This document shows positions 1,884 through 16,107 of a stretch of DNA of 47,371 nt, piece after piece (the stretch's first letter is position 1; each line of letters starts with the position of its first letter). The notes under the pieces are model-generated. The model saw only the letters and a program-made list of their open reading frames with translations. It made no database searches and was not told where the DNA came from. The translations under genes were made by a program, and so were the position numbers. This stretch comes from Candidatus Woesebacteria bacterium (lineage in GTDB: Bacteria > Patescibacteriota > Microgenomatia > UBA8517): assembly GCA_020061305.1 (NCBI GenBank), contig JAGUYM010000014.1:1-47371 (forward strand). Direction: 5' to 3'.

Positions 1884-1958
1884 TCCGCGATAGCTCAACG
1901 GCAGAGCAACAAGCTGTTAACTTGAAGGTTGTAGGTTCGAATCCTACTCGCGGAGCCA
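1884..1958 (+). tRNA. tRNA-Asn(GTT), CCA encoded; island integration site
   Basis: Acceptor TCCGCGA/TCGCGGA, D arm GCTC/GAGC, anticodon loop CT-GTT-AA, T arm GTAGG-TTCGAAT-CCTAC. Confidence 0.97.
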
Positions 1959-3530
1959 GATGGGACGCAGAGGCAACAAAGCGTCCTTTTGTCCCGTAAC
2001 ACCGCTCTTTTTCGTAAGTTCGAATTTTTTATTTTCCAAGTCTTCTGTTTTATCCACTTTCGAACCGTTGGTTGCTTCGACTGCCTCAGAGAGGATTTTG
2101 AATGTCTTACTGTAGGTATAACTGAGTTTTCCCTCGTCAACCGTTAATGTGGCGAAGATAAACCTGATTAGGGATCTTTGCTCGTCTATCATGCCTTTAG
2201 ATCTAGCTTGTAAATATAACTCCTTGGCTCTTTGGGATAGTTCATAGAGGTTCACTCCTAAATTGATGTAGCTTGTGCTTGCCTGGGAGTGTTTCTTTAT
2301 AGACTCAGTTATCTCGTCTTTCTCGTCCGAGTATTGTTTAAACTTCCTGCTGTAAAACTCTGGGGTTATCTTTTCATCGAGTTTGTCGTCGTATAACTTG
2401 TCCATTCGCTTCTGAACCGCCTCGTAGCGGGCTTCAAGCTCGTCCACGGTGTTGTTATGATATTCGACCTCGTCTTGATGACTTTCCTTGAGTGCCTTCT
2501 TAAGCCATCCGACTATACGGCTATTTTTGATTTTTAAGGTTTCAAAGCCTTCTAAAAGCTGGGCTTCAACTTCATGTTCTTTTACCCAGGTTGTCTGTGG
2601 GCATTCGTGATAATGGTTACAATGACCGTAAATATGACCCTTAGCTGTCTCAAAAGTAATTGAGTTGTGGCAACTAGCGCATTTGATAAGTCCTCGGAAG
2701 AGGAAATTGTGTTTACGGTATTTAGGTGTAGTTCTGCTTGTAAGCATAGCCTGGACTTTATTAAATTGCTCGATAGTAATCAATGGCTGGTGTTTACCTT
2801 CATACAACTCGTCGTTCCATTTAATCTTACCAATATAAAAAGGTTCACGCAGCAGGGAGTGAATACGGCTATGGGGGAGCTTGTGTCCTAGTTGGGATCG
2901 CATGCCCTCGGCATACATTTTCTTGGATAGTCGTTTGGTTGAGTAGTTGCCTGTGAGATATAGTTCAAACATTTTTCTCACAAACGGCGCCGTATCTTCA
3001 TCGATAACATGGATCTTATGCCCAGTTTCGCCAATGGTTTTATAACCGTTTGGTGGTTTAGTTGGTAGCCACCCCTGGGCAATCTTTTCTTTTTGCCCCT
3101 TCTTTACATTCTCCGAGAGTAGGCGGACATAATATTCGGCTGTGGCTACCTTTACCCGCCACATAAACCATTCGTGGGAACGGGAGGTATTGTGAAGAAT
3201 ACAGCCTTCTTTTGCCAGGTGGACTTGATGGTTCTCATTCTCAGTAATCCATAAGTCGATAGTGGGAACATCAGCGAAGTTTCTGGTTAAGCGGTCTGTG
3301 GTTTCGACGATAATCGTAGGAATGTCGTGCTTACGGACATAAGCAATCATCTCAATAAATATCTTCCTCTGGACTTTGCCTGCTGCGGACTCAGAAACTG
3401 CAAAGACTTTAGCGACTTCTAAGCCTTGTTTGTCGGCATAATCCCTTAAGAACTTCTCCTGTGCTGGTAGAGAGTAACCTGTTTCTTCTTGTTCTTTACT
3501 GCTTACTCGGCAGAATATGGCAGTTTTCAT
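1944..3530 (-). CDS. Large serine recombinase (resolvase + recombinase + zinc ribbon + coiled coil)
   Basis: Catalytic CRVSS motif, TDRLTRN, LFRGLIKCASC zinc ribbon; likely start MKTAIF at 3530; stop codon lies inside the tRNA. Confidence 0.95.
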   Translation of the reverse strand: MKTAIFCRVSSKEQEETGYSLPAQEKFLRDYADKQGLEVAKVFAVSESAAGKVQRKIFIEMIAYVRKHDIPTIIVETTDRLTRNFADVPTIDLWITENENHQVHLAKEGCILHNTSRSHEWFMWRVKVATAEYYVRLLSENVKKGQKEKIAQGWLPTKPPNGYKTIGETGHKIHVIDEDTAPFVRKMFELYLTGNYSTKRLSKKMYAEGMRSQLGHKLPHSRIHSLLREPFYIGKIKWNDELYEGKHQPLITIEQFNKVQAMLTSRTTPKYRKHNFLFRGLIKCASCHNSITFETAKGHIYGHCNHYHECPQTTWVKEHEVEAQLLEGFETLKIKNSRIVGWLKKALKESHQDEVEYHNNTVDELEARYEAVQKRMDKLYDDKLDEKITPEFYSRKFKQYSDEKDEITESIKKHSQASTSYINLGVNLYELSQRAKELYLQARSKGMIDEQRSLIRFIFATLTVDEGKLSYTYSKTFKILSEAVEATNGSKVDKTEDLENKKFELTKKSGVTGQKDALLPLRPIWLRE

Positions 3531-3600
3531 AGTTATTTTGTAACACACAACATAAACAAACTTTTAAGCAATATCAAACAATGGTTGATCTTTGGTTTCA

Positions 3601-4146
3601 TTAGCCTTGTTCTCCTTTAATTTCATCCTCATTTTGCCCACTATTTGTCCCATTTTTACCGTCATCCTGCCGAAGACTTACCGCAACCCCGCCGTCAATT
3701 TTGGAGAAGCGTTGGGGAACATTTGGAGAATTCTTACCGCCGTTATCTGGTATATATTTGGTGTAACCTCGGTCTGGTTTTACCGCCATTAAAAATGAGG
3801 GGTTATTGCGTCTTTGATCGGTAAACCACGAGTATGTTTCCTTGCATTGTTCCCTCGTCCATTTTTCCTTCCTTATAACCCATCGGAACTTACGGCACCA
3901 GCGGTCTAATGTTCTGCGGTAGGGTAGTCCTCCTCTCCTCGTAAAAAGAGGAGTCTGTTTATCAGTGCTTAGTGCTTCGAGTCCGGAGCGTAGTTTAACT
4001 AAACTTCCTGTTTTGCAGTACAACTTAAAAACGCCATATTGGGCTTCAGACTCTTTCTCCAACTTCATAACAACTTGCTCAAATGGTCTCGCTTTATACA
4101 AAATCCCGCCCGCGTTTTTTCTTGTCTGTTTTATTCTGTTTGCCAT
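3601..4146 (-). CDS. Hypothetical HTH protein resembling phage terminase small subunit-like proteins
   Basis: ESEAQYGVFKLY...SL...RTLDRWCRKFRWV pattern recalls the ES..AY.AF..Y...RW...W TerS-like HTH family (recognition from memory); start uncertain (4146 or 4176). Confidence 0.45.
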   Translation of the reverse strand: MANRIKQTRKNAGGILYKARPFEQVVMKLEKESEAQYGVFKLYCKTGSLVKLRSGLEALSTDKQTPLFTRRGGLPYRRTLDRWCRKFRWVIRKEKWTREQCKETYSWFTDQRRNNPSFLMAVKPDRGYTKYIPDNGGKNSPNVPQRFSKIDGGVAVSLRQDDGKNGTNSGQNEDEIKGEQG

Positions 4147-4155
4147 AATCTTCGT

Positions 4156-4240
4156 ATAGTAACTATATAAATACATTTCCTCTTAAAGGGAAAAATTGTT
4201 ACTATAAATGTTCCTTTATAAATCCCTATATAGTTACTAT
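4156..4240. repeat. Perfect 14-bp inverted repeat in an AT-rich intergenic region
   Basis: ATAGTAACTATATA (4156-4169) / TATATAGTTACTAT (4227-4240); partial third copy GTTACTATA at 4198-4206. Confidence 0.8.
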
Positions 4241-4245
4241 GTGTT

Positions 4246-4599
4246 TTATATGTTGATGTCATCTAGATTTACCACCTCAGTTGATACAGGTTCTTTGGCT
4301 CCGTAATTAGGGTCTTTGCTTCTGGCAAGGTGATAAGCGTCGTAGATCTTCTCCACTACCTGATCAAACAGCTTACTATCGTCAATAAAAACGATCTCAT
4401 TCCACTTGCCAATAAATTTATAACTAGGAGCCTGAATCCAAACATAATCTTGAAATTGGGGATGAAGCCGATCTGACTTTAGGATCTTCCAGCCGTGCTC
4501 TATCCAAACATCGAAGAGTATTACTGTTGCCTGAGCCAGTATGGTATCTGATTTTAGTAATTTGACTTTGACGGTAATGTCATTAATCGTGATTGTCAT
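4246..4599 (-). CDS. SpoVG-like nucleic-acid-binding protein
   Basis: LAQATVILFDVWIEHGWKI...WIQAPS resembles the SpoVG pattern; acidic tail LDDINI as in SSB-like proteins. Confidence 0.55.
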   Translation of the reverse strand: MTITINDITVKVKLLKSDTILAQATVILFDVWIEHGWKILKSDRLHPQFQDYVWIQAPSYKFIGKWNEIVFIDDSKLFDQVVEKIYDAYHLARSKDPNYGAKEPVSTEVVNLDDINI

Positions 4600-4624
4600 A
4601 GTTATTTTTATTTAAGATTTTTCG

Positions 4625-4783
4625 TTAACTGCTATTTATCTTTTTTCCTTCAATCCTGAGCAATGTTTCTGTAAAACCTAATAAAGTCATGGCAACCTCC
4701 ATCACTTCCTGGAGAGTTAGTTTGAGACGGTAGTCTTCTTCCAAGATCTGTTTTAGTTCTAGTAATAGGTTTCTGCTTATCAT
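4625..4783 (-). CDS. Small hypothetical protein (52 aa, not in the ORF track)
   Basis: MISRNLLLELKQILEEDYRLKLTLQEVMEVAMTLLGFTETLLRIEGKKINSS; fits the operon gap and has the same ATAACT-ATG start context as its neighbours. Confidence 0.7.
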   Translation of the reverse strand: MISRNLLLELKQILEEDYRLKLTLQEVMEVAMTLLGFTETLLRIEGKKINSS

Positions 4784-4785
4784 AG

Positions 4786-5031
4786 TTATCCGTTGGCATA
4801 GAGCCGCGCCTTCACGACTCGTAATTGGTTGAAATAAACCTGTGGCGATACCTTGATTTCGTCGTGGTAATACTCGGCAACGAGATCCTGAAGTTTTTCT
4901 GTGTTTTGGAAAAGAAACAATGCTTTACGAGGATTTGAGCGGTCAATATCTTCGATGGGATACCAAAGTGAAAGAGTAGTGGCTAGTGATAGATCACTGG
5001 TTGAGTAGTAATCGTTATTAAGTGTATTCAT
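4786..5031 (-). CDS. DUF5659-like small protein
   Basis: YSTSDLSLATTL...IDRSNPRKALFLF pattern typical of this CPR mobile-element family. Confidence 0.6.
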   Translation of the reverse strand: MNTLNNDYYSTSDLSLATTLSLWYPIEDIDRSNPRKALFLFQNTEKLQDLVAEYYHDEIKVSPQVYFNQLRVVKARLYANG

Positions 5032-5045
5032 AGTTATTAGGTAAC

Positions 5046-5105
5046 AAAAAAGGGGCTGTAACTTCTAAATACACGCGAGTGCGTATACTCAGAAGCCACA
5101 GCCCC
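5046..5105 (-). terminator. Long intrinsic terminator/attenuator hairpin in the leader of the core operon
   Basis: On the minus strand a 25-bp stem (GGGGCUGUGGCUUCUGAGUAUACGC-ACUC-GCGUGUAUUUAGAAGUUACAGCCCC) whose non-Watson-Crick positions are all G-U, followed by U6. Confidence 0.8.
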
Positions 5106-5256
5106 GATCGTTTCGTTAGGCTTTACTTCCTAAATCTATAATCATTCAAACAAATTTAGAGTATTAAGTCAAGTTAACTTTTGCTCACATTATCTCCACT
5201 TCTGATTGTTTCTGGTTGTTATTTCTTATTTCGTCTGAGATTGGTAAAATATCCCT

Positions 5257-5387
5257 AACGACCTAAACCCAGTAATGGGCATGGTTAAACAAGTCCTCGT
5301 GAGCAATAAGCTCTCCCTAGAGCGCTCACGAGGCTGTCTCCCGAAAGGGTGGCAGGTGGTGCAAACCATCGCTGGGGGGAGCTTTTT
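5257..5387 (+). ncRNA. Candidate structured ncRNA of unknown class
   Basis: Four hairpins, three GNRA loops (GUAA, GAAA, GCAA), CCUAAA/CAUGG receptor-like internal loop, 13-bp loop-to-3' pairing, upstream TGGTAAAAT -10, downstream U-run. Confidence 0.65.
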
Positions 5388-5395
5388 GGTTTGAT

Positions 5396-5471
5396 TTGAC
5401 AATCTCCCTTCAATGAAGTTAATATGCAACACCTCTAGGTTAAGTTATTAAAAATTGCCTAGAAGGAGGTG
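5396..5471 (+). promoter_or_regulatory. Sigma70-type promoter and hairpin-sequestered strong RBS
   Basis: TTGACA at 5396-5401, candidate -10 about 5419-5425; CACCTCTAGG (5430-5439) pairs with CCTAGAAGGAGGTG (5458-5471). Confidence 0.55.
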
Positions 5472-5475
5472 AAAA

Positions 5476-6348
5476 ATGATAATGAAACACAAAAACAAAT
5501 CTCGAATAATCCCTGCCGTCCTTTTCCTCTTTGTGCTTATTGTTCTGGGGGTTGTGCTTGTTCCTCGGTTATTAAATCAATCTAAGGTAGAGCTATCGTT
5601 GCGAGAGAGTGCAAAAGACAAAGAAGTAGTCGAACTCTTGGCAACCATGAGTGAGAACCCCAATAAAGACTCTCAGGAGTATCAAGAGGCTCAACAGAAA
5701 TTTTGTCTGTTAACTGCGCGCCCAGTTGTCGAAAGGGAAAAAGCTATCGCTAATATCCGTGAGTTCCTAGGTATGTCTGATATACCTGTAGAATTCCTCT
5801 GTAGTCGATTTAATAACAAGCCTGACGAGAGTGGAACTGATTATAATAGTCCTGCCTCTGAACATTACGAAGCTGCCAGGTTTGGTTTCACTATCGATCC
5901 TAAGACTAATTACATTGTTGAGGTTGGTGAAGCAGAGCGTCGTTGGGGGACAAAAGACGATGGCACGCGCTGGTTCGACAATATGCCTGAATACGACAAT
6001 ACTCCTCGCTATACCACCAAGGAGCAAATTCGTAAGGTTGCAGAGGACTTCATGATTAAGCACAAGGACATTTTTGGTGTTGATATCACTAAAATGACTT
6101 ATGAGTTTGAAGGCACAAAACCAGGCAATTTCTTTGTGAAGTGGTATGACTATACCAAACCTTTCACCAAGGAGTTTGAGGAATGTGGAGATGCTGATAA
6201 GACCCGTGAAGGCGCTTATCAGAATGATCAGGGTGTCTGGTGTCTCAAGACTAAGTCGACTCGTTACCCAATGGTTAGTCTCACCATTACCCAAGGCGGA
6301 CAAATAGCTGTCTATGACAACGAAGGCTGGGATATTGAAAAGCTATAA
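5476..6348 (+). CDS. Membrane-anchored/secreted hypothetical protein
   Basis: N-terminal basic + hydrophobic segment, paired Cys, SD AGGAGGTG. Confidence 0.85.
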   Translation: MIMKHKNKSRIIPAVLFLFVLIVLGVVLVPRLLNQSKVELSLRESAKDKEVVELLATMSENPNKDSQEYQEAQQKFCLLTARPVVEREKAIANIREFLGMSDIPVEFLCSRFNNKPDESGTDYNSPASEHYEAARFGFTIDPKTNYIVEVGEAERRWGTKDDGTRWFDNMPEYDNTPRYTTKEQIRKVAEDFMIKHKDIFGVDITKMTYEFEGTKPGNFFVKWYDYTKPFTKEFEECGDADKTREGAYQNDQGVWCLKTKSTRYPMVSLTITQGGQIAVYDNEGWDIEKL

Positions 6349-6581: not shown

Positions 6582-8450
6582 ATGAGAATTAAAAAGGTTC
6601 GGATAAATAACTATCGTTCAGTCCAGAATTCTGGAGACATTTATCTTGAGGAAAAGGTCACTATTCTTGCTGGAAAGAATGAGTCAGGGAAGACGGCCAT
6701 TTTAGAGGCGCTTGAAGATTTTGATAAAGATAAGGAAATTCGGAAAGAGGCTAAACCTATTTTTAACGAGGAAGCCGTATCACAGGTAGCAGTTACCTTT
6801 ACATTATCCGCAGATGAAGTAAATCCTTTATTACAGACAATCGGATTAGAGGGTAAAGAAGAAAAATCTTGTGACCTTACCATTACTAAGACATTTCCAA
6901 AAACTTATGATCTCGATGGTGACACATCGAAATGGCTGAATGGAAAATTAGACGGTCAAGCAAATGAAACCAGAAAGGCTATAAAAGGAAAAGCATCTTC
7001 TATTTCGTCAGCTCTGAAAAAAAATGAGTCAGTTGGCTTGGCTTTTCCAGAACTTGATTTTAGTGATACTGCGTCGCTAGTAAAGCAATTAACGGATTTT
7101 CAACAACAATTAACTCCGCTCTTGCCTAAGATTGAAGATGAGACACAGAGGAATGCTGCCACTCAAGATTTAGCCGAAGCTGTAAAGTTAGCCCAACAAC
7201 TTCAGGCAACTCTTGATCTAGTGAGGAAATTTACAGACGCGCTGGTCAAATCGACCCCCAATTTTATCTACTTTGACTCTTTTGAGAATCTTTTACCGTT
7301 TCAAATTCCTTTAGCTGAAGCCAAGAAAAACAAGGCGGTGCTAAATTTCGCTAAAATTTCTGAGATAGACCTAGATCTGCTTCTTAACGCAGAACGAACC
7401 CGACAGCAAAACATCAACTACTTAAGTCGTAAATCGACAACGATTACGGGAGATTTCTTGGACTTTTGGAATCAAGATAAGGTTGAACTTGAAGCGATGC
7501 TTGACGGAGATAATTTGGTATTTGGCTTTGTTGAAGAGGGTAAAAGTGAAAAGTTCAGCATGCAGCAACGAAGTAAGGGCTTCCAATGGTTTCTCTCTTT
7601 TTACATCCAGCTCAAGCTTCATTATGAGTCTGGCACACAAAATTACCTTCTGGTTGACGAACCTGGGCTTTATTTGCATGCTAAGGCACAAAGAGATGTT
7701 CTGAGTGTTCTAGAGGATCGTTCAGCCAAGATGCCTGTCATTTTCTCCACACATTCTCCTTACTTGCTCGATCCCGACAAGTTGGATCGGGTGCGTTTAG
7801 TTTTTAGAGGGCGAGAGGATGGGACGACTGTTGAATCGAAGATTCACAAAGTGTCAGACAAGGAAACCTTAACCCCTATCTTGACTGCAATAGGACTTGA
7901 AATAACAAGTGGAATTACCAATCCTGACAAACTCAATAATGTGGTGGTTGAGGGACCCTCCGATTGGTATTACCTCACATCTTTTAAAACTATCCTAGAT
8001 GATGGGCAGTTAAACTTCATTTACGGTGGCGGTTCAGGAAATATGCCAAAAGTGGGAACCATCCTACATGGTTGGGGTTGCAAAGTGCTATACCTTTACG
8101 ATAGTGACCAGGGTAAGAAGGATGGAGAGAAAAACCTAACTAAAAGGTGGTTAGTTGAAAAAGCACAAATCAAGGCGGTTTCGGATAGTGATGGCGTGCG
8201 GATCGAAGATTTGTTTACCCAAGAAGACTTTATAAATCATGTTTTAGAAGACAGCTCAAAAACTTATAAATCCAGCAACTCAGAGTATGTCACCAAAGCA
8301 AAAGCCGATAAAGTTTTATTAGCCAAAAAGTTCTTATCCAGAGCTACTGAAATGAAAGATAAACTCTCAAAGGATACCAAAGAAAACTTTAAGAAAGTAT
8401 TCGAAGTTCTAATTAAAGAGTTTTCTAGTGAGGAAAAAGCGAAGGTTTAG
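6582..8450 (+). CDS. OLD-family ATP-dependent endonuclease (ABC-type ATPase + TOPRIM)
   Basis: INNYRS, Walker A GKNESGKT, RSKG signature, LLVDEPGLYLH, STHSP, TOPRIM VVVEGPSD and YDSD. Confidence 0.85.
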   Translation: MRIKKVRINNYRSVQNSGDIYLEEKVTILAGKNESGKTAILEALEDFDKDKEIRKEAKPIFNEEAVSQVAVTFTLSADEVNPLLQTIGLEGKEEKSCDLTITKTFPKTYDLDGDTSKWLNGKLDGQANETRKAIKGKASSISSALKKNESVGLAFPELDFSDTASLVKQLTDFQQQLTPLLPKIEDETQRNAATQDLAEAVKLAQQLQATLDLVRKFTDALVKSTPNFIYFDSFENLLPFQIPLAEAKKNKAVLNFAKISEIDLDLLLNAERTRQQNINYLSRKSTTITGDFLDFWNQDKVELEAMLDGDNLVFGFVEEGKSEKFSMQQRSKGFQWFLSFYIQLKLHYESGTQNYLLVDEPGLYLHAKAQRDVLSVLEDRSAKMPVIFSTHSPYLLDPDKLDRVRLVFRGREDGTTVESKIHKVSDKETLTPILTAIGLEITSGITNPDKLNNVVVEGPSDWYYLTSFKTILDDGQLNFIYGGGSGNMPKVGTILHGWGCKVLYLYDSDQGKKDGEKNLTKRWLVEKAQIKAVSDSDGVRIEDLFTQEDFINHVLEDSSKTYKSSNSEYVTKAKADKVLLAKKFLSRATEMKDKLSKDTKENFKKVFEVLIKEFSSEEKAKV

Positions 8451-8455: not shown

Positions 8456-10255
8456 TTACACCTCTTTGGTAACCAGGACTTCTTCTCCTAACATGTCAAT
8501 GATTTTGACTGCCACTTTGGTTGGTTTTTCTGTTATCTCAAGCTCGTATTCTCCTTTGACCAGATCGCTTTGTTTCTCAGGAACATCCGAGAACTCAATC
8601 TTGAAAACTTCACCATCGTAATTTGTATTAACCAGGACAACATCGATCATTGATCTAAAATCTGGTATTTTCTTCTGCAATAATCCTGGTTCAAGTTCTA
8701 AGCGTTTAATGATGGTGGGGGAGATAAAGGATGTAATCTTGATCTTTGCCTTATCCTTGCCTGCTCTGGTAATTTCGACTTCTGCCCTAGAAGGTTCATA
8801 GCTGACAAAGTTTTTGTCCTTGAGATCGAAGACGATAAATTGTCTCATGCGCTTGTTGGTGCGAGCGTCTTTGTGGGGTTGTTTTTTATCCCATTCTTCA
8901 ACCCATGAGTCAACCTTTGTCTCTCTACCGAGGCAGATAACAACGATGTCTCTGTCTTCTTCTGGTCGTTTACCTAGCTCGTCTTTTATTAGCTGGAGAT
9001 CTAGGAGGGTAAGTGGGTGGTTAAAGTCGATAATTTTCACTAACTCGCCACTATCCCTTAAGCCGTCAAAAAAGGTTTCTGTTTTTGTCCTGGTAATACC
9101 ATATTGCTGGATTGCTAACTCTTTTGCCTCGGTTTTAAGAACTCTTAAGTCGTAGTTATTAACCTTATAAACTCCAAAGGACTTACTTATTTGACCATCA
9201 AGGAGTTTCTTCTTCTGTTCTTTGATGATTTTCTGCAATCTATGGCTTGTTTGTTGAATCGCACCTTTATTGATATCTACACCCACCCACCGTCTACCTT
9301 CTTGTTGGGCGACGGCACAAGTTGTCCCCGATCCAATAAAACAATCCAATACTAGACCGTTGTTTGGGGAAGATGCTTTAACGATTCGCTCAAGAAGCGA
9401 TTCTGGTTTTTGAGTAGCATAGTTAGTTTTTTCAATTGCATTTCCTTGAACGGGATTAATATCGCTCCACACATCACCTGGGTTTTTTCCAGATTTTTCT
9501 AGTTCTTCTGCCTCAACTTCATATCGAGCTTCACCCCTTTTAGCTCTAGCAATTGTTTCTGGATTGTATGGAACTCTAACAGGATCGAGATCGAACTGAT
9601 ACTTGTCGCTCTTAGAATAAAAAAGTATGTTCTGGTGTTTTCTTCCCCATCTGTCGTTTCCGCTTGCACCCATGAAGTAATTCCAAACGATGTCGTTTTG
9701 AAAGTTGTCTTCGCCGAATACCTCATCCATTAAGACTCTCATGTAGTGGGTCATGTGATAGTCCAAATGGACATAAATACTACCTGTCTCGGATAGAAGT
9801 TCCTTGAGGAGTATTAACCGCTCATACATAAATTGGAAGTATTCATCTCTCTTCCAAATATCCTCATACATTGTTTGTTGAATTATCGATTCGCTATCTT
9901 CTTCAATTTTTCCTAAGTTTTTAAGTCCTCTCAGTTCAACCTTGCGCATGTAGTCTTTATTACTGGCGAAAGGAGGATCGATATAAATAAGATCGACCTT
10001 GCCTCTGAAACCAAGTTCTAGGAGGGAGGCGAGGACTTCTTTGTTGTCGCCGTGGAAGAGGAGGTTATACCAGTTCTTTTCTAGCTTGCTATATTCAGGC
10101 ACTTTGAGAGCTTCTTTGTCTCCAAAACTCTCGGTAAGTTGCGTGGGATAGCCTGTGACGAATTCTAGGGGTTTCTTATTAACCCAAGTCAGCATTGGTC
10201 TGCCGTTGGGTGTGCCGATCTTAATTTTTTTGTTTGTGTCGTTTGTCATAGTCAT
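8456..10255 (-). CDS. Type III-like R-M DNA methyltransferase (Mod, beta class)
   Basis: IYIDPPF precedes LDCFIGSGTT; TQKPESLLERI; ATG at 10255 overlaps the res stop (ATGA). Confidence 0.9.
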   Translation of the reverse strand: MTMTNDTNKKIKIGTPNGRPMLTWVNKKPLEFVTGYPTQLTESFGDKEALKVPEYSKLEKNWYNLLFHGDNKEVLASLLELGFRGKVDLIYIDPPFASNKDYMRKVELRGLKNLGKIEEDSESIIQQTMYEDIWKRDEYFQFMYERLILLKELLSETGSIYVHLDYHMTHYMRVLMDEVFGEDNFQNDIVWNYFMGASGNDRWGRKHQNILFYSKSDKYQFDLDPVRVPYNPETIARAKRGEARYEVEAEELEKSGKNPGDVWSDINPVQGNAIEKTNYATQKPESLLERIVKASSPNNGLVLDCFIGSGTTCAVAQQEGRRWVGVDINKGAIQQTSHRLQKIIKEQKKKLLDGQISKSFGVYKVNNYDLRVLKTEAKELAIQQYGITRTKTETFFDGLRDSGELVKIIDFNHPLTLLDLQLIKDELGKRPEEDRDIVVICLGRETKVDSWVEEWDKKQPHKDARTNKRMRQFIVFDLKDKNFVSYEPSRAEVEITRAGKDKAKIKITSFISPTIIKRLELEPGLLQKKIPDFRSMIDVVLVNTNYDGEVFKIEFSDVPEKQSDLVKGEYELEITEKPTKVAVKIIDMLGEEVLVTKEV

Positions 10256-12834
10256 TTTTGGGTTTGGTAAATCCAATTAAAGACTGGCGTTACTTTACCA
10301 AACACCGATTCACCTTCCTCTAATAGCAGGAGTTCATATTTAATTTTATCAGGATTTATCGCCTCTAGTTGTTTCATTTCTTTCTCTGCCGCCTCGTTTC
10401 TGTATGGCTTACCTTTGACTTCGACGATGAGTGATTTACCATCCTTCTTTCTAATCAAAAAGTCGGGTGTATAAGAGTGCCAATCTCCTTTATTGTCTTT
10501 ATATTCAAATGCAAAGTCAGTTTTCTCTCTATCGGTCAGCGCTCCTGTAAAGTAAATATCATCGATATTATCTGGGTCTTCGCCGAGTTTGTCCAACATT
10601 TGTTCAAAAAAGGCTCGTTCGTCTTCTGAGTCAAAGTTGTAAGGGTCATAGTGGAAGCCAAACAAAGGCATCTGTCCAGCCTTCTTTTTGTAGGCGTCGG
10701 TGTCCAAGACATACTTTTCAAGGTTGTCCTTATTGACCCTAATATGGGTTACATAGGATGTCTTGCCGTCTTCGACTTCTTCCTCAAATCCTTTGGTTTT
10801 AATCAGCGCCAGAGCTTCCTCAACAGTCTCGGTAGTAACTTTGTATTTGATAACCTGTTTTTCCAGCTGTAAACGGACAAGCTCTAGGTCGACTGCAGAC
10901 ATCTCCCCATCTGGGTAAAGAGGAGTAAGGAGCTTATAAACCTCTAGAGAGTCCAGGCGATAAGTGTGGGCAAGCAAGACTGCTGCCTGGTATAAATCAA
11001 CCTTCACATCTTTGGGTTTTGATTTTTCACTATCAACCTCAACCAGGACGCCTTTCCTTTGGGTCTTGGACATGGTGTAAATAGTCTTCTCAAGCCCTTC
11101 TACGGCGTCAGATTTGGGCTTCTCGACTCTCAAGGCGGTAGATGTATCGTCTTCGGGGATGATCTTTTGGATGAGCTTCTTGATAACGACTGGTTCGATC
11201 TCTAGCTTTTTGAGAGTTATTTTGACGGGATAAGTGTCGGTTTTGGCACGATTCAGGTCATCCAAGCCTTCACCAAATGTTTCCTGGAGCTGGCGATCTA
11301 GCACCGAGACATTGGCTTTGGAGAGATAAATCTTAGCTTTTTTAGTATTGCCGTTTACCTGCCTTAAACACCTGCTGGCTGCCTGAAGCACGAAGTTGTT
11401 GCTTGATGAGAGTTTCCTGGCAAGCGCAGTAGCAAATAAGGATAGGCAATTCCACCCTTCAGTGCCTTTATTGACCAGCAAGAACACTCTGTAGGGTAGG
11501 TGCGGGTCATTAATGCGGTTATCAAATAGATCCTTGATGTCTTCTGGCGATTTATTATGGACTGGCAAGACCACTGAGGGATCAAGTTTCAGGGAGATAA
11601 GAGTCTGTTCGACGATTGGTTTAGCTTTATCCAAGTCATCAACCTGAGGAAAGTATATTGCCAGCTTTGCATATTCGCCGTTATTAACTCTCACATCTTT
11701 GTATTCTTGAAAAAAGTCTTTAACAATATCGATAACAAAGTCTTCCTCTGAAACCTCTTTATAAGCAACAATATTGCCTCGGACTTCCTTGAGAATGCCA
11801 TCTTCAATGCCCTGGGAAAGCCCATACCAGTAAATAACATCACGCAGAAGTTGTCTCTGGAAGTAGGGCGTGCCTGTAGTATTAACAACCGCCAGAAGGT
11901 TAGTCTTTTCGCTGATGTAGTTAATGGTTTGGCGCACTCGTTTGAGATCCTCAGCTAGGGCTTGTCCGTAAGTGTGGTGCGCTTCGTCAGAAAAGACTGC
12001 CAGATGAGGAAGAGAGGTGATAGATTGAAGGCGCAGATTGGCAACAAGTTCTTTGGCTTCTTCTAGCCCTAAGCTCAGTTGTGTGCCGAGGAAGGATTTG
12101 GGAATGCTGTTTTTCTGCAGTCTGATTTTCTCTGTATTAGTAACAATGACATTGAAAGAACTGCCTCGAATAACAGGAATGTCCTTCTCACCGTCCCTGG
12201 TGTAGGTAAACTTCACATTAGTGACAAATGACTTATAGAAGCGCGTTGGTAGGATCTTGTCATAGGGAGTATCAGCAATTTCTTTTAATGCTCCTAGAAT
12301 GGTTTTCCCAGGTGCAAACACCAGGGCGTTTCTGACAAAGATGCCGTCCTTCTCCTGATATTCCAGAGCCATCGCAAACTCAGTGGCAATGATAGAGGCA
12401 ACCAGAATTGTCTTGCCAGCTCCCATTGCTAAGGCAAGAATATAGCTTGGATATGGAAGAGTTAGGGTTTCTCTTAATGCTTCTAGCCTGTATTTCTTGA
12501 CAAACACATCGTTGGTTCTGACCTTATCAATGATGGAATCTAGTCCGCCTCCTGCCAGCAAGAGGTCGGTTAAATCCTCCTCTGATAAAGAAATGCCTAG
12601 TGCCTTTAATAGTTCTTTTCCTTGAAAATATTCCTTGTAAAGATCGAAAATGTTTGGTGTGTTTTTGACTAAGCGCAAATACCAGTAAGTTTCTAACGCC
12701 TCAAATTGCGCTTGTCTTAGAAAATTATTTCTATTGAAGTTTAGGATGGTTGCAATAACAGGGTAGGAGGAGGAATATCCCTGCTGTCTCCAGTTAATAA
12801 CATCTGATTTTAATTGTTGATATAAGTTGTTCAT
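10252..12834 (-). CDS. Type III restriction enzyme Res subunit (SF2 helicase + PD-(D/E)xK nuclease)
   Basis: AMGAGKT, DEAHH, EGW, QAASRCLR; C-terminal TPDF...IVEVKG. Confidence 0.88.
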   Translation of the reverse strand: MNNLYQQLKSDVINWRQQGYSSSYPVIATILNFNRNNFLRQAQFEALETYWYLRLVKNTPNIFDLYKEYFQGKELLKALGISLSEEDLTDLLLAGGGLDSIIDKVRTNDVFVKKYRLEALRETLTLPYPSYILALAMGAGKTILVASIIATEFAMALEYQEKDGIFVRNALVFAPGKTILGALKEIADTPYDKILPTRFYKSFVTNVKFTYTRDGEKDIPVIRGSSFNVIVTNTEKIRLQKNSIPKSFLGTQLSLGLEEAKELVANLRLQSITSLPHLAVFSDEAHHTYGQALAEDLKRVRQTINYISEKTNLLAVVNTTGTPYFQRQLLRDVIYWYGLSQGIEDGILKEVRGNIVAYKEVSEEDFVIDIVKDFFQEYKDVRVNNGEYAKLAIYFPQVDDLDKAKPIVEQTLISLKLDPSVVLPVHNKSPEDIKDLFDNRINDPHLPYRVFLLVNKGTEGWNCLSLFATALARKLSSSNNFVLQAASRCLRQVNGNTKKAKIYLSKANVSVLDRQLQETFGEGLDDLNRAKTDTYPVKITLKKLEIEPVVIKKLIQKIIPEDDTSTALRVEKPKSDAVEGLEKTIYTMSKTQRKGVLVEVDSEKSKPKDVKVDLYQAAVLLAHTYRLDSLEVYKLLTPLYPDGEMSAVDLELVRLQLEKQVIKYKVTTETVEEALALIKTKGFEEEVEDGKTSYVTHIRVNKDNLEKYVLDTDAYKKKAGQMPLFGFHYDPYNFDSEDERAFFEQMLDKLGEDPDNIDDIYFTGALTDREKTDFAFEYKDNKGDWHSYTPDFLIRKKDGKSLIVEVKGKPYRNEAAEKEMKQLEAINPDKIKYELLLLEEGESVFGKVTPVFNWIYQTQK

Positions 12835-12836
12835 AT

Positions 12837-13499
12837 TTATAGATTCTCGGTTAGAAATCGCTGAACTCCCTCTAGCATTGACCTAACATCTTCTGCTTTA
12901 TACTCATCAAATTTACCATGATCGGCACTATCCCTAATTGCTTTCCATGCTTGGATTTGTTTCTGCATTAAACGGCTATAGATTTCCTTATCGGCAAGTT
13001 TAGTGTTGAGCGATCCAATGTCATCTCCTGTTTTGACATCAACAGAATTTTTTTGTGCCAGTTGTCTTAAACCATTCTCCAACACCGCTCCTGTAAGAGA
13101 AGCTGCGGAATCCTTATAGTTATTGCCTAATAAATGCTGAGCCATCTCAATGAAGTCTGTAAAAATCTCTGCGCTTACCAAGTCTCTTACCCTTGTGAGA
13201 AAACCCAGCCCTAAGTCTTCTTTTAGCGCTTTTAATATTCCTATACCGTGGTCAACATCGGAGGGGAAAGCGCTTTTTACTTCTTCTACAAAGTTTTTGT
13301 AATAAGAACTGCTTTCACCACAAACCATTGAAATAAAGTTTTGGGAGTTGTTTTTCCATTCATGAAAGGAGGCACTGTTCACTCTATCTGGTGCTACGAC
13401 TCTATCAGAACTTCTGTTAAAACGGGTTGCAGCTACGCCTTGTGCTTTTTGCAAAAGCTGTTCAGTTCGTTCGATGAGTTTTTGTGTTACTGAATTCAT
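12837..13499 (-). CDS. HEPN-domain (DUF4145-like) protein, putative RNase
   Basis: SAASLTGAVLE helix and RxxxxH motif RDSADH. Confidence 0.75.
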   Translation of the reverse strand: MNSVTQKLIERTEQLLQKAQGVAATRFNRSSDRVVAPDRVNSASFHEWKNNSQNFISMVCGESSSYYKNFVEEVKSAFPSDVDHGIGILKALKEDLGLGFLTRVRDLVSAEIFTDFIEMAQHLLGNNYKDSAASLTGAVLENGLRQLAQKNSVDVKTGDDIGSLNTKLADKEIYSRLMQKQIQAWKAIRDSADHGKFDEYKAEDVRSMLEGVQRFLTENL

Positions 13500-13500
13500 A

Positions 13501-13683
13501 TCATATTTTCATTAATTTTTCTATATCTTCTGGTCGATAACGCCTATCGCCGCGCTCGTTTACTCTTATAGCTTTTAGTTTCCCGCGCTTGTCCCAGCGC
13601 CTCAAGGTCTCCACATGCACATTAAGGATTTCAGAAGCCTGTTTTATTGTTAGTAACTTTGGTAGTGCCTTATCTTTGCTCAT
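13501..13683 (-). CDS. MerR-like/excisionase-family winged HTH
   Basis: LLTIKQASEILNVHVETLRRWD.RGKL...GDRRY. Confidence 0.9.
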   Translation of the reverse strand: MSKDKALPKLLTIKQASEILNVHVETLRRWDKRGKLKAIRVNERGDRRYRPEDIEKLMKI

Positions 13684-13684
13684 A

Positions 13685-15493
13685 TTAATGTTGGCTGTTA
13701 AGCCTGGTTGCTATGGCTTCCTGCTCGTCATACAGAGGTTTATCCTGATCGATCATCCTCTGTTCGGCAGCGCTTAACCACTGATTAGCCTCCATCTTGG
13801 AAACGATTGCAGAGATATTAGCAATTCTTACTCCAATTATCTCATTGATTCTATCAACATCAGTTTTGTTTTTTTCGTAGAAACTTGAGTTGTTTTTGAG
13901 ACTTGACCAGCTTGGCTGAATTTCTCGTAGCCTTGATAGGCTTGTTTTCCAAGACTCAATATCCTCTTTTTTATAGTTGGGGGGAATGTAACCAGCAGCA
14001 TGGACAACAATAAGCTGCGTAGGACATCCATTTAGGCTTCCTTGGACTTCTGCTATACCTATGTCATCAAACTTTTTATCAAACCATACATTTTTGGCAT
14101 CTGTTGAATCTCTTTCGAGATAATCCTCAACTAACTCGTCAGCAGTATAGTAACCCTCTAATGACCATTCCCACACATAGCTATTCCAATACCCAGCTTT
14201 TGACATTGCACTTGAGACGACATCGTATGAAGCCTGTTGTTGAGTAGTGTTATTCTTTAATAGTGATTCTGCTCGTATTTGTGCAGATTTATCAAGTTTA
14301 GGCTCGTATTTTACTGGCGTTGCACCATTTTCTTTGCGTTTTTCGTTAAGTAGCTCGACAAATCTATTTCTGTCGATTGTTGGTTTTACCGTGTCTGACA
14401 AATCATTTGTTGCATCGTGCCAGTTCTTATCAAGTTTGCCCTTCTGTTTTTCCAAAGGTAGAACTAGGCGGATGTCTTTTATTGGAGCAAAGCCAATTTC
14501 TCTTGAATCGGAACTACCTTTTCGGTTGTCGCCCATAGCAAAAATTGCGTCTTGGGGGACGGTAACTGCCTGACATTCCTTTAGAAACTTTTCTCCGAAT
14601 GTCGAGCGGGGTTTGGCAATATAAGGCTCTTTTTGTGGTTCGTTATTAAGGTAAACAATGCCGTCTCTTAGTTCTATTGTGTCTCCAGGAAGCCCGATGA
14701 TTCTTTTTAATAGTCCCGCTGGGTTTGCGCCATCTCTACTTGTGAGTTCTCTTGTCGCGTCATTTTCCCAGGTGATAATGTCACCTCTACCTAGAGTATG
14801 TCCTAGATATCTTTTTCCACCAATAACGATGCCATTCGGATAGGGCAAGAAGCCAGCAGTAGTAATAATCTCCTTGGCAAGATCCTTGTTGCTTTTACCC
14901 TTTGTTCCTTTGTCCCAAGTCGGATACATAGAGCCAGTTCCTACGATATTAATATCCTCTGTAATATAACCGAGCTGGTTCGCGGCCAAAGCGCCAACAG
15001 ATACATAGCCAACAACCCAGATGGGTAAAATAATTGCACAAACCAATACAAGTGCTACTAATTTCGTTAAAACTAGCTTTGGACGCAGGGATTTCAATAA
15101 ACCTCTTAATTTCTCTTGTTTTAGTCTCTTTACGATTTCAAGTGGTTTGATGATAACGACCAATAAATAGAGTGGAAGAGTGGCTAGCGCAAAGAATAGC
15201 TTAATTAGGAATAAAAAGATGTTTTGTTTCTTCTGCGATCTCTTAGATAAAAGTTGTGCGGTAAAACCTATCACACCAATTAAAAAGGCAAGGCAACCGA
15301 GCAATATTAACCCTAGGAGAGAGAAGGCGAAGACATCTGGTGCTTTATCAAAAAGCTCCTTCCTGATGCCCAGAACATAACCCATAATTGCAAAGACGCC
15401 TATAATGCATGCTAGCCAGATGAAAATAGAGACCTTGGTGATCCTGTTGAGAAGTTTCCCTTTGTCTAGTTTTAACGATAATTTCTTCGGCAT
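13685..15493 (-). CDS. Signal peptidase I (S26) fused to a CAP/SCP-like extracellular domain
   Basis: Four TM segments; GSMYPT (Ser), KRIIGLPGD (Lys), GDNRKGSSDSR; CAP-like LNEKR...PVKYEPKLDKSAQIRA...FDDIGIA. Confidence 0.85.
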   Translation of the reverse strand: MPKKLSLKLDKGKLLNRITKVSIFIWLACIIGVFAIMGYVLGIRKELFDKAPDVFAFSLLGLILLGCLAFLIGVIGFTAQLLSKRSQKKQNIFLFLIKLFFALATLPLYLLVVIIKPLEIVKRLKQEKLRGLLKSLRPKLVLTKLVALVLVCAIILPIWVVGYVSVGALAANQLGYITEDINIVGTGSMYPTWDKGTKGKSNKDLAKEIITTAGFLPYPNGIVIGGKRYLGHTLGRGDIITWENDATRELTSRDGANPAGLLKRIIGLPGDTIELRDGIVYLNNEPQKEPYIAKPRSTFGEKFLKECQAVTVPQDAIFAMGDNRKGSSDSREIGFAPIKDIRLVLPLEKQKGKLDKNWHDATNDLSDTVKPTIDRNRFVELLNEKRKENGATPVKYEPKLDKSAQIRAESLLKNNTTQQQASYDVVSSAMSKAGYWNSYVWEWSLEGYYTADELVEDYLERDSTDAKNVWFDKKFDDIGIAEVQGSLNGCPTQLIVVHAAGYIPPNYKKEDIESWKTSLSRLREIQPSWSSLKNNSSFYEKNKTDVDRINEIIGVRIANISAIVSKMEANQWLSAAEQRMIDQDKPLYDEQEAIATRLNSQH

Positions 15494-15543
15494 ACCTCAA
15501 CAAAAGTATACTAAAAACAGCTAATAATTGATATACTGTTTCT

Positions 15544-15708
15544 ATGGGTAGAATTAATGCAAAGTGGCACTTAGCCAACAAAATGCCTAAAAACCCAACC
15601 TTGGATCAGAGAGTTGCCTGGCACATTGATCATGCGAGGAATTGCTCTTGCCGTCCTTTGGGTGGAAAAATTCTGGAAGAGATAAAAAGGCGAGGATTAA
15701 AGGTTTAA
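15544..15708 (+). CDS. Small His/Cys-rich hypothetical protein (54 aa, not in the ORF track)
   Basis: MGRINAKWHLANKMPKNPTLDQRVAWHIDHARNCSCRPLGGKILEEIKRRGLKV. Confidence 0.65.
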   Translation: MGRINAKWHLANKMPKNPTLDQRVAWHIDHARNCSCRPLGGKILEEIKRRGLKV

Positions 15709-16107
15709 GAAACGGTTAACTTCTTTGGTCGTGTATTCTGGGTACTCTAGGTAATTTATCCAGTCAGTCGTCCGAAATTGTACCCATTTCTCGAGCCAAA
15801 TTTGACGAGAGGCGTAAAAAGCTATCTTGTCAAACGGTTTTATCCAGTCATATCGGGCTTTTCTGCCCTTTAGCTCCAAGTTCTGAAGTGCCATCTTCAA
15901 AAGTAGCCGTTTTTCGTGGGCTTCAGAACTCTCAAAGACTTTTCCAGCGTTTTCAGATAGTTTTAGCAGGCAAGATGAGGTCACATAGTATTCCTCGTCA
16001 GCAAATTGTAGTTTCTCAATTTTCTTGTTGATTGCCTTCTGTTTTGCCCGATATTCTTTTCGTTTTTTCTCATAGTAGCTCTCAGTAATGCTCCCCTGCA
16101 GAGTGAA
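15697..16107 (-). pseudogene. C-terminal remnant of an older LSR fused at the att junction to the displaced tail of the new element's LSR
   Basis: GSITESYYEKKRKEY...LLKLSENAGKVFE...EKRLLLKMALQNLELKG aligns by eye with EKITPEFYSRKFKQY...LYELSQRAKELY...EQRSLIRFIFATLTVDEG of the intact LSR; no catalytic domain. Confidence 0.85.

What the first reader, a model, noticed from the sequence alone, without database searches (positions are those of the whole stretch)
1944..15798. Integration-state-dependent C-terminus of the serine integrase: the att site lies inside its own reading frame, at the tRNA CCA
Seen: the LSR reads ...RPIWL-RE* into tRNA-Asn, and its Trp codon TGG is the reverse complement of the tRNA CCA. 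13.8 kb away the same core (TGGCTC on the minus strand) occurs in the same frame, as ...RQIWL-EKWVQFRTTDWINYLEYPEYTTKEVNRFLNL*. Inference: excision through GAGCCA would replace the 2-aa RE end with a 31-aa tail, so the integrated and excised forms encode different integrases. This could be a built-in directionality or stability switch. Known analogies are split tyrosine integrases of SSV1-type viruses and integration-dependent immunity in mycobacteriophages. I do not know of it being characterised for tRNA-targeting LSRs of CPR.
Basis: partly seen in the sequence, partly recalled or inferred. Interest (0 to 1): 0.85.

Follow-up and report, generated by a model that had tools for sequence, protein, structure and literature searches.

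The report
Integrase gene rewired by own integration
A 13.8-kb mobile defence island in a tiny groundwater bacterium cuts and rejoins DNA inside its own integrase gene, so the enzyme has a conserved 31-residue tail when the island is free and loses it when the island sits in a tRNA gene.

Summary
A large serine recombinase (LSR1, 1944-3530, minus strand) reads across the junction into the 3' end of tRNA-Asn. Its Trp-Leu codons are the reverse complement of GAG-CCA. The same GAG lies 13,840 bp away (15793-15795), followed in frame by a 31-codon tail. Contigs from three metagenomes join the tRNA directly to position ~15800, which fixes both island ends. A same-genus genome has an empty site.

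The island inserted between the tRNA and that older element.

The tail recurs in 18 copies, mostly as orphan ORFs. It shows purifying selection only in this frame (pN/pS 0.30; shifted frames 0.9-1.2). One public MAG contig carries the predicted long form contiguously, with an LSR 85% identical. So two isoforms exist and the long one is selected.

Whether the tail is a directionality switch is untested. A docking prediction gave only weak support.

The principle is already in print for phage Mx8 (a tyrosine integrase by my recollection, not checked) and for the serine integrases of Bacillus phage Goe14 and phage Perkons. This is a new, clade-wide variant in candidate-phyla bacteria that target the tRNA 3' end.

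The parts
1884..1958 (+). tRNA-Asn(gtt). Its last acceptor bases and discriminator (GAG, 1953-1955) are the integration core. The encoded CCA (1956-1958) is supplied by the island.
   Evidence: ARAGORN. The same-genus empty site ends ...gcgGAGcagg with no encoded CCA. Junction table.
1953..1955 (.). attL common core GAG. The crossover dinucleotide lies inside it (GA inferred).
   Evidence: GAG is the only block shared by attL of 4 genomes, attR of 7 copies and the empty attB. The arms form an inverted repeat, CCCAT...ATGGG, centred on GA (read).
1944..3530 (-). LSR1, the short (integrated-state) form, ending ...RPIWL-RE*.
   Evidence: Pfam Resolvase, Recombinase and Zn_ribbon_recom. 1973 homologues at E<=1e-40. 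A homologue's model matches solved LSRs.
1956..15795 (.). Island E1. The distance between the two GAG copies is 13,840 bp.
   Evidence: Contig joint 1959->15802 ('skips 13842', 2 letters between) in runs X3, X4 and X6. A colinear element at 89-98% protein identity for the matched backbone and cargo ORFs of 90 aa or more sits in G158 at another host's tRNA-Asn. GC is 0.37-0.46 inside against 0.30-0.32 in the left flank.
6582..8450 (+). Cargo: Old/AriA-like AAA_15 ATPase (defence).
   Evidence: Pfam AAA_15. PADLOC Old 3.2e-27 and AriA 2.6e-24.
8456..12834 (-). Cargo: type III restriction-modification, Mod (8456-10276) and Res (10252-12834).
   Evidence: PADLOC MTase_III 1.5e-67. Pfam N6_N4_Mtase and ResIII.
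13501..13683 (-). 60-aa MerR/HTH_17 protein, a candidate excisionase or directionality factor (inferred).
   Evidence: Pfam MerR_1 and HTH_17. Conserved at 90-95% in the G158 and G393 elements and 56% in G142.
15697..15792 (-). Tail module: 31 codons (EKWVQ...RFLNL) plus a stop. It is the C-terminus of LSR1 only in the excised or attP configuration.
   Evidence: 18 homologous copies. For codons 10-32 the entropy at codon positions 1/2/3 is 0.51/0.47/1.19 and pN/pS is 0.30. The other five frames carry stops in 11-18 of 18 copies. A contiguous LSR1-type plus tail occurs in L182 7626-9344.
15793..15795 (.). attR common core GAG.
   Evidence: Homology among tail copies begins at the Leu codon CTC, which is the reverse complement of GAG. 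Flanks beyond it are unrelated. A loose end before 15793 in X3 and X6 is another tRNA's 3' end.
15796..16089 (-). C-terminal remnant of an older, different LSR (LSR2 family). In this genome it reads into the E1 tail.
   Evidence: Translation. It is 95% identical to the C-terminus of an intact 492-aa-frame LSR at tRNA-Asn in G259. Relatives' contigs diverge from the window after 16089 (table 7).

Best explanation
Positions 1956-15795 are a 13.8-kb integrative island, E1. It carries an LSR, an Old/AriA-like ATPase, a type III restriction-modification system, a HEPN protein, a MerR-like small protein and an S26 peptidase.

E1 was inserted by its LSR at the GAG that ends the acceptor stem and discriminator of tRNA-Asn. 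It landed between the tRNA and an older LSR element, of which only a remnant is left. The attP crossover lies inside the LSR reading frame, at the Leu codon of ...RPIWL.

In the chromosome the gene therefore runs into the antisense tRNA and stops after two host-dictated residues (RE*). On the excised circle the same gene continues into 31 conserved codons (EKWVQFRTTDW...RFLNL) stored at the far end of the island.

Shown: both boundaries, the in-frame geometry, protein-level purifying selection on the tail, and a natural contig with the long form.

Inferred: the long form is the working integrase for attP x attB, because selection can reach the tail only when it is fused. The short form is the resident-state enzyme. 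The tail sits after a flexible linker and folds into short helices. My best guess, at about 35%, is that it docks on the recombinase body near the zinc-ribbon/coiled-coil region and biases the enzyme towards integration, or against re-integration and excision when it is absent. That would resemble the IntP/IntX difference of phage Mx8.
For: Boundaries:
- An element-free joint 1959->15802 appears in 3 of 4 runs, at depths 59.2, 5.69 and 19.8.
- A same-genus empty attB is seen in G001 and as loose ends at 1956 in X3 and X6.
- The GAG core is common to all junctions compared.

Same architecture elsewhere:
- I fetched DNA around tail hits in 13 other genomes.
- Five have an intact LSR1-type gene (75-96% identity) on the same strand as an EKW-type tail, 11.7-16 kb away: G158, G142, G393, G328 and G299.
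- The Leu codon is in phase in each.

Family-wide breakpoint:
- Homologues diverge exactly after WL or LL.
- Of 120 database homologues, 33 stop 0-4 residues later, 49 continue as antisense tRNA, 14 carry the W-x-x-F-R-T-x-x-W...P-E...L-L tail, 22 have other tails and 2 are truncated.
- Of 80 metagenome loci, 38 end inside an ARAGORN-called tRNA, 24 of them tRNA-Asn.

Selection:
- Across 18 tail copies, codons 10-32 give pN/pS 0.30, against 0.90 and 1.20 in the shifted frames.
- Third codon positions vary most.
- Only this frame stays open.
- Upstream sequence is unrelated and often holds stop codons.

Long form in nature:
- G441:C198 (L182 7626-9344) encodes an LSR 85% identical that continues in frame into the tail.
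- The tail is followed by a gene that also lies downstream of an orphan tail in L171.

Fold:
- AF2 on a long-form homologue gives a linker at residues 495-514 with pLDDT below 50.
- Tail helices at 516-529, 533-536 and 540-551 have pLDDT 70-80.

Docking:
- The verdict was weak support, ipSAE 0.52 against a best control of 0.00.
- That mark was reached by 58 of 80 solved complexes and 2 of 110 mismatched pairs, but scores of 0.60 or under came from only 7 of those 80 and from both passing mismatches.
- Partner pLDDT was at least 71 and runs agreed in at least 65% of contacts.
Against: - No circular junction ('goes back' joint) was seen in the four runs laid. Those runs are contigs and cannot show absence.
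- None of the loci held whole showed a terminal overlap, nor did L182, so no circle is proven. The L182 junction could also be a tandem-array junction.
- In the 50%-identity library the EKW-type tail profile found 98 proteins. All full-length tail matches are in proteins of 228 aa or fewer, so none is a full-length LSR. Clustering may hide long forms.
- Close LSR1 relatives (60-86% identity: P0006-P0009, P0012, P0026-P0028, P0050) have short, dissimilar tails that keep only an x-x-x-[DE]-x-[FIV]-R-T stretch. That stretch lies inside the presumed P half-site, so a long tail is not universal.
- In tail codons 2-9, third positions are no freer than first positions (0.73 against 0.72). Conservation there may be at DNA level.
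- All canonical LSR domains lie upstream of the junction, so both forms may be fully active.
- Tail copies were found by tblastn, which favours protein-like conservation, and they are not independent.
- Of the other 8 neighbourhoods fetched, G163 has a 60% LSR1-type gene, G064 has an LSR2-type remnant, and G082, G086, G363, G134, G097 and G112 show no intact LSR in the DNA fetched. G082, G086, G363 and G097 are limited by contig ends.
Confidence: 0.75

Rival explanations
1. Neutral overlap. attP simply lies in the 3' end of a compact gene. Two isoforms arise, but the tail has no role in directionality, and any selection on it concerns generic folding or solubility of the free-state protein.
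For: All catalytic and DNA-binding domains are upstream of the junction. Short-form ends are host-dictated and arbitrary (RE*, PG*, RG*, PREDSNLQP...). Close relatives carry short unrelated tails. In tandem arrays inner LSRs read into foreign tails (L096; G158) and apparently persist.
Against: Purifying selection extends to codons 10-32, well beyond a 25-bp half-site. The same motif is kept in LSRs only 48-66% identical to the first sequence of the long-form alignment. The tail is predicted to fold and to dock, with weak support only.
Confidence: 0.3
2. The conserved 93 nt are a DNA or RNA element (an extended attP, a binding site for an accessory factor, or a terminator) or a separate micro-protein, and not an LSR tail.
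For: The first 8 codons overlap the P half-site and show no third-position relief. In the integrated state the segment is found as short ORFs of 23-152 aa.
Against: Third-position entropy is 1.19 against 0.51 and 0.47 for codons 10-32. The shifted frames give pN/pS of about 1. No conserved start codon exists and stops lie just upstream in several copies. The other five frames are closed in 11-18 of 18 copies. The segment is contiguous with LSR bodies in L182, in G158 and in 14 database proteins.
Confidence: 0.07
3. Coincidence. The stretch 15697-16089 is one contiguous relic of a long-form LSR gene, GAGCCA there is a chance hexamer, and the island ends elsewhere.
For: The hexamer is at chance frequency. 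The remnant and the tail form one open frame of 136 codons.
Against: Contigs in three runs skip exactly 1960-15801. LSR2-family proteins diverge exactly after WL. The G158 element is colinear with the window up to the tail (for example S26 peptidase 96%; tail 84%), while the LSR beyond it is only 52% identical. In four other genomes the tail is followed by unrelated flanks.
Confidence: 0.02

Closest known systems
Myxococcus phage Mx8 IntP/IntX (and Mx9)
   Same: attP lies inside the integrase coding sequence. Integration creates a new 3' end and an integrase with altered properties (PMC6070905, passages read, citing Tojo 1996 and Magrini 1999). From memory, not checked here: the target is a tRNA gene.
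   Different: From memory, not checked here: Mx8 Int is a tyrosine recombinase. Here the enzyme is a large serine recombinase, the displaced piece is only 31 residues, and no activity data exist.
Bacillus SPbeta-like phage Goe14 sprA-like serine integrase
   Same: It is a serine integrase whose attP lies in its own C-terminal coding region. Integration truncates it and leaves an orphan ORF. The authors speculate that the long form integrates and the short form excises (bioRxiv 10.1101/2021.11.22.469490, passages read; its supplementary materials 7-8 were not seen).
   Different: Goe14 targets a protein gene (spoVK) and loses 131 residues. It is a single phage. The passages read report neither evidence of selection on the tail nor a clade-wide pattern. 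By my Pfam scan the tail here matches no family.
Psychrobacillus phage Perkons ORF165 recombinase
   Same: The att core lies in frame in the 3' end of a resolvase-family integrase. Chimeric ORFs form at attL and attR (PMC13245101, passages read).
   Different: The target is floA, and the swapped ends become parts of two chimeric proteins. Here the partner is a tRNA gene read antisense, and the displaced tail becomes an orphan.
Integration-dependent immunity of mycobacteriophages; SSV1-type split integrases
   Same: The integration state rewrites a gene product (recalled from memory, not checked in a call).
   Different: The gene rewritten here is neither a repressor nor an integrase disabled by splitting. 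All LSR domains stay intact. The extreme C-terminus of the tail is not conserved, which argues against an ssrA-like tag.
phiC31 integrase-RDF fusions and the C-terminal contact with the RDF
   Same: In phiC31 the extreme C-terminus contacts the RDF, and an RDF tethered to the C-terminus by a 32-residue linker drives excision (bioRxiv 10.1101/2025.05.02.651858, passages read). Here a small folded module is tethered by a linker of about 20-35 residues at the same end.
   Different: No similarity of the tail to any RDF was found. The direction of any effect is unknown.

Membership tests
Large serine recombinase (serine integrase) | N-terminal resolvase catalytic domain with the R-x-S nucleophile motif | tested here: met
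   PF00239 at 2.6e-19. R14, V15 and S16 are invariant in 48 homologues.
Large serine recombinase (serine integrase) | Recombinase domain plus a zinc ribbon with four Cys | tested here: met
   PF07508 at 5.7e-17 and PF13408 at 3.5e-06. C290, C293, C310 and C316 are invariant.
Large serine recombinase (serine integrase) | Coiled-coil insertion in the zinc-ribbon domain; overall fold like solved LSRs | tested here: met
   Tested on the homologue P0116, which is 55% identical. Long helices span 337-441. Foldseek top hits are the serine integrase cryo-EM entries 9y66 and 9dxd (2.0e-16, 7.3e-16), Bxb1 9iu2, phiC31 9rah and the LSR-DNA complex 4kis. P0001 itself was not folded.
Large serine recombinase (serine integrase) | Short (2-bp) crossover without long direct repeats; attP with dyad symmetry | tested here: inconclusive
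   Only GAG, sometimes followed by C or CC, is common to the junctions. No repeat of 10 nt or more exists. The inverted repeat CCCAT/ATGGG flanks the core. The exact dinucleotide cannot be fixed from sequence.
Large serine recombinase (serine integrase) | Excision needs a directionality factor | not testable with these tools
   The 60-aa MerR/HTH_17 gene (13501-13683) is only a candidate.
Integrases whose attP lies in their own ORF (Mx8 IntP/IntX, Goe14 type) | Crossover inside the integrase coding sequence, with the C-terminus exchanged on integration | tested here: met
   A natural long form is shown.
Integrases whose attP lies in their own ORF (Mx8 IntP/IntX, Goe14 type) | The two forms differ in activity or specificity | not testable with these tools
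   Only selection on the tail and a weak docking prediction bear on it.
Integration-dependent immunity (mycobacteriophage type) | attP inside a repressor gene; a C-terminal degradation tag is removed on integration | tested here: not met
   The rewritten gene is the LSR. The last 2-8 residues of the tail vary (NL, NA, SNLN, VAN, QY...).
SSV1-type split integrase | Integration separates the catalytic parts of the integrase | tested here: not met
   All domains stay upstream of the junction.

The most novel reading that the evidence does not exclude
The displaced tail is a built-in, cis-acting directionality module. When it is fused, on the circle, it docks near the zinc-ribbon/coiled-coil hinge and licenses attP x attB. 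When integration removes it, the resident enzyme cannot re-integrate and is poised for excision. In that case a whole clade of candidate-phyla LSRs that target the tRNA 3' end would encode recombination direction in the topology of their own gene, with little or no need for a separate factor.
Probability: 0.3. Interest if true: 0.8.

Novelty: new variant of a known kind. Interest (0 to 1): 0.55.

Why it matters
Serine integrases are valued tools because their direction is controlled by a separate factor. An integrase whose own integration edits its C-terminus offers a second, self-contained route to directionality.

This case adds three things to the anecdotal phage examples:
- A large natural family: 1973 homologues at E<=1e-40, and remnant matches in 138 of the 401 genomes searched in the class.
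- Evolutionary evidence that the displaced piece is kept by selection.
- Defined att sites at the discriminator/CCA end of tRNA-Asn that work across several host families.

It also explains the frequent orphan mini-ORFs and LSR C-terminal remnants next to tRNA-Asn in these small genomes. And it shows how defence islands (type III restriction-modification, Old/AriA-like) move among them.

Tried and rejected
- Direct repeat as a boundary marker: none of 10 nt or more, and the hexamer is at chance level. I rejected it as evidence.
- Right boundary from G001 synteny: this failed, because the genes at 16259-19605 have no counterpart next to the G001 tRNA.
- IMG/VR: the single-protein scan found no relative. 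The alignment scan found 12 distant LSRs at 33-48% identity plus one 43-residue fragment at 88%, many at contig ends, which was uninformative. The 26-nt P-arm pattern had 0 hits in viral contigs.
- Circular contigs: no terminal overlap in any locus held whole or in L182.
- Circle junction in runs: no 'goes back' joint in X3, X4, X6 or X9. These are contigs, so absence proves nothing.
- Tail profile census: 98 hits, none a full-length LSR. This is not informative on long forms because the library is clustered at 50% identity.
- Pfam on long forms: no domain in the tail.
- Sequence search of solved structures with P0001 found only two N-terminal domains.
- Degradation-tag idea: rejected as the leading model because the extreme C-terminus is not conserved.
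- ARAGORN calls no tRNA at the G142 and G393 attL sites, although T-arm and acceptor-like sequence is there. This is unexplained.
Supplementary files were not opened.
- G117 is an unpublished genome. It enters only as one of the 138 of 401 matching genomes, and no other claim rests on it.
Full report
**What is at the coordinates.**
tRNA-Asn(gtt) occupies 1884-1958 on the plus strand. On the minus strand an ORF at 1944-3548 (probable ATG at 3530) encodes a large serine recombinase, which I call LSR1. It has Resolvase, Recombinase and zinc-ribbon domains. It ends ...LLPLRPIWLRE*.

The last five codons overlap the tRNA. TGG (1956-1958) is the reverse complement of CCA. CTC (1953-1955) is the reverse complement of GAG, which is the end of the acceptor stem plus the discriminator.

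At 15793-15798 the hexamer recurs. There the minus strand reads ...RQIWL and then EKWVQFRTTDWINYLEYPEYTTKEVNRFLNL* in the same codon phase.

The hexamer itself is at chance level, with 17 matches against 15.1 expected. There is no longer repeat of the tRNA end. That is what one expects of a serine recombinase.

The frame upstream of the second WL is open for 136 codons. It is a 130-residue C-terminal piece of another LSR, which I call LSR2. It is about 30% identical to LSR1.

I searched 401 genomes of the class with this piece, and 138 had matches. One of the 401, G117, is unpublished and enters only into that count. Most matches stop at query residue 99-101, which is exactly the WL. Many other matches cover only residues 97-130, the tail alone, in short ORFs. 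A few are contiguous.

In the 30 loci fetched, LSR2-family proteins share ...KPFDKIAFYASRQxWL. They then diverge at once into antisense tRNA (PL*, RG*, PREDSNLQP...), into the EKW tail, or into other sequence.

**The island and its ends.**
The same-genus genome G001 has the same ABC transporter and tRNA-Asn. Its tRNA gene ends ...gcgGAGcaggatataatt, with no encoded CCA. It then runs on to unrelated genes and reaches the metallo-beta-lactamase-fold gene that lies at 19668 in the window. This fixes the left end to within 3 nt.

I laid Logan contigs of four metagenome runs on 1700-16300. They gave a joint from 1959 to 15802 ('skips 13842', two letters between) in X3, X4 and X6, at depths 59.2, 5.69 and 19.8. 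The two letters only turn the LSR2 codons into the RQAWL variant, so the true join lies in the shared GAGCCA.

Loose ends at 1956 reproduce the G001-type empty site. A loose end before 15793 is another organism's tRNA 3' end joined to the same LSR2 sequence. Relatives' contigs leave the window after 16089, where the remnant is cut.

Hence E1 spans 1956-15795, with 13,840 bp between the two GAGs. It was inserted between tRNA-Asn and a resident LSR2 element that has since been truncated. GC content agrees, at 0.30-0.32 in the left flank and 0.37-0.46 inside.

The cargo is:
- an Old/AriA-like AAA_15 ATPase
- type III Mod and Res
- a HEPN protein
- a 60-aa MerR/HTH_17 protein
- an S26 peptidase-CAP fusion

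**The same design elsewhere.**
I fetched the surroundings of tail hits in 13 other genomes.
- G158 carries a colinear E1 at a different host's tRNA-Asn. Its LSR is 95.7% identical, Mod 94%, Res 95% and S26 96%. The tail follows, and then an intact 518-codon LSR2-type gene only 52% identical to the window's remnant.
- G142 (LSR 88%) and G393 (75%) have the tail as an orphan ORF 13-15 kb from the LSR on the same strand, with unrelated flanks.
- G328 (85%) and G299 (84%) show the same arrangement at 11.7 and 15.3 kb.
- G163 has a 60% LSR1-type gene downstream of two tails.
- G064 has an LSR2-type remnant at tRNA-Asn 8.3 kb from a tail.
- In G082, G086, G363, G097, G134 and G112 no intact LSR lay in the DNA fetched. 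Four of these are limited by contig ends.

attL in four genomes reads [tRNA]...GAG then ccagatgggacg. attR in seven copies reads ...cccatttctc GAG then variable sequence. Only GAG, sometimes followed by C or CC, is common. The arms carry an inverted CCCAT/ATGGG pair centred on GA, so GA is my inferred crossover dinucleotide.

The B' side varies among hosts. I infer that this is why these LSRs can also land next to resident elements and build tandem arrays (L096).

**Is the tail a protein?**
I compared eighteen copies with their DNA.
- Homology begins at the Leu codon. Upstream sequence is unrelated and often holds stop codons.
- The frame closes 0-8 codons after ...FL-x-x in 16 of the 18 copies.
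- For codons 10-32, beyond a typical 25-bp half-site, entropy at codon positions 1, 2 and 3 is 0.51, 0.47 and 1.19.
- Pooled pN/pS there is 0.30 (Jukes-Cantor dN/dS 0.12), against 0.90 and 1.20 in the shifted frames.
- The other five frames contain stops in 11-18 of 18 copies.
- For codons 2-9, third positions are not freer (0.73 against 0.72), so DNA-site constraint probably acts there too.

Two caveats apply. The copies were collected by tblastn, and they are related to one another.

The same motif, W-x-x-F-R-T-x-x-W...P-E...L-L, ends 14 of the 120 best database homologues of LSR1. These are 53-59% identical to LSR1. Of the rest, 33 stop within 0-4 residues of WL or LL, 49 run on as antisense tRNA, 22 have other tails and 2 are truncated.

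Of 80 metagenome loci, 19 run off their contig and 2 are broken. Another 38 end inside a called tRNA: 24 Asn, the rest Gln, His, Ser, Arg, Glu, Ile or Asp. The remaining 21 have no called tRNA, and seven of those are tail-type.

**The long form in nature.**
I scanned one genome per species for a 26-nt stretch of the P arm. It found 8 loci, whose record titles name Microgenomates, Roizmanbacteria and Shapirobacteria MAGs, and in two cases 'uncultured Gammaproteobacteria'.

Seven are attR-like. In the eighth, L173, which lies in G441:C198, GAG is followed by the LSR1-type P' arm. The 10,404-nt contig encodes an LSR 85% identical to LSR1. It continues in frame through ...LLPLRPIWL into EKWVQFRTTDWMTELEYPEYATKEINLFLH*.

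The gene after the tail is 97% identical at protein level to one inside the G142 island. It is 77% identical to one lying 1.3 kb beyond an orphan tail in L171. The contig has no tRNA and no terminal overlap. It is therefore either a piece of the free circle or an inner junction of a tandem array. Either way the predicted long gene exists.

**What the tail may do.**
AF2 on the long-form homologue P0116 (558 aa, 18-row alignment, mean pLDDT 77.2) gives a low-confidence linker at 495-514. It then gives helices at 516-529 (spanning the junction), 533-536 and 540-551, with pLDDT 70-80. The model matches solved LSRs.

A complex prediction of LSR1 (48-row alignment) with the 33-residue tail (18 rows) returned weak support. 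The ipSAE was 0.52 against a best control of 0.00. That mark was reached by 58 of 80 solved complexes and 2 of 110 mismatched pairs, but at 0.60 or under by only 7 of the 80 and by both passing mismatches. Partner pLDDT was at least 71 and contact agreement at least 65%. No interface was given.

In phiC31 the extreme C-terminus touches the directionality factor, and a factor tethered there drives excision (10.1101/2025.05.02.651858, passages). So a tethered module at this end could plausibly bias direction. The variable extreme C-terminus argues against a degradation tag. All of this is inference.

**Against a universal role.**
Close LSR1 relatives have short, unrelated tails. No circle was captured. 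The tail profile finds only short proteins in the clustered library.

**What is known.**
- For Mx8, attP lies inside int and integration makes a new 3' end with altered properties (PMC6070905, passages).
- Phage Perkons shows an in-frame att core in its resolvase-family integrase (PMC13245101, passages).
- Searches for candidate-phyla or Patescibacteria LSRs at tRNA genes returned nothing relevant.

**Verdict.**
The finding is real and its structural reading is right. It is a new variant of a known kind. The new elements are the tRNA discriminator/CCA-end target for a serine recombinase, the clade-wide pattern, the selection on the displaced tail and the tandem-array context. The functional switch remains a hypothesis, at about 0.3-0.35.

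Noticed in passing
window 12837-13503 and 13662-15482: Contigs in runs X3 and X4 skip the HEPN gene (665 nt) and the S26 peptidase-CAP gene (1819 nt, replaced by 12 letters). Island variants with different cargo therefore coexist. The G393 element also lacks the peptidase.
   Followed up: partly
window 1956-1958; L026 3011-3016: The island supplies an encoded CCA to tRNA-Asn, and the empty site in the same genus has none. Of the five other tRNAs in the window, two encode CCA and three do not.
   Followed up: partly
P0016, P0046, P0078; L036 1321-3030: A second conserved tail family follows the WL junction in other LSRs (WLPNPSFNINDSI.RLIDIVEEIGVAGRL-like and related). Several P-arm/tail families seem to exist.
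   Followed up: no
L070 about 4430-4560; L061 about 4700-4860: At the attL of the G142 and G393 islands there is T-arm and acceptor-like sequence ending GGGGAG, but ARAGORN calls no tRNA. It may be a degenerate or unusual tRNA.
   Followed up: partly
L064 9951-11727; L073 1968-8573; L066 1657-8261: Two to four tail copies lie within a few kb on one strand in G134, G097 and G163. These are arrays of decayed islands next to tRNA-Asn hot spots.
   Followed up: partly
G000:C15:21307-22644: A second, distant LSR (28% identity, 593-codon open frame) lies elsewhere in the same genome.
   Followed up: no
window 36081-36469: A tmRNA with a long tag peptide, AKPQVLASMFSNMRYAYAYAPAYA*, lies beside a cluster of four Ser tRNAs and one Arg tRNA (33741-35425).
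   Followed up: no
window 16259-19605: The genes between the LSR2 remnant and the conserved MBL-fold gene (a DUF5655 protein, two unknowns, an ECF-type sigma factor and a membrane protein) have no counterpart at this site in G001. There, a zinc-ribbon protein and RNase HII sit instead. RNase HII was not found in G000 with the G001 protein as query.
   Followed up: partly
window 15544-15708: A 54-aa Cys/His-containing ORF on the plus strand ends 12 nt inside the tail's 3' end. It matches no Pfam family.
   Followed up: no
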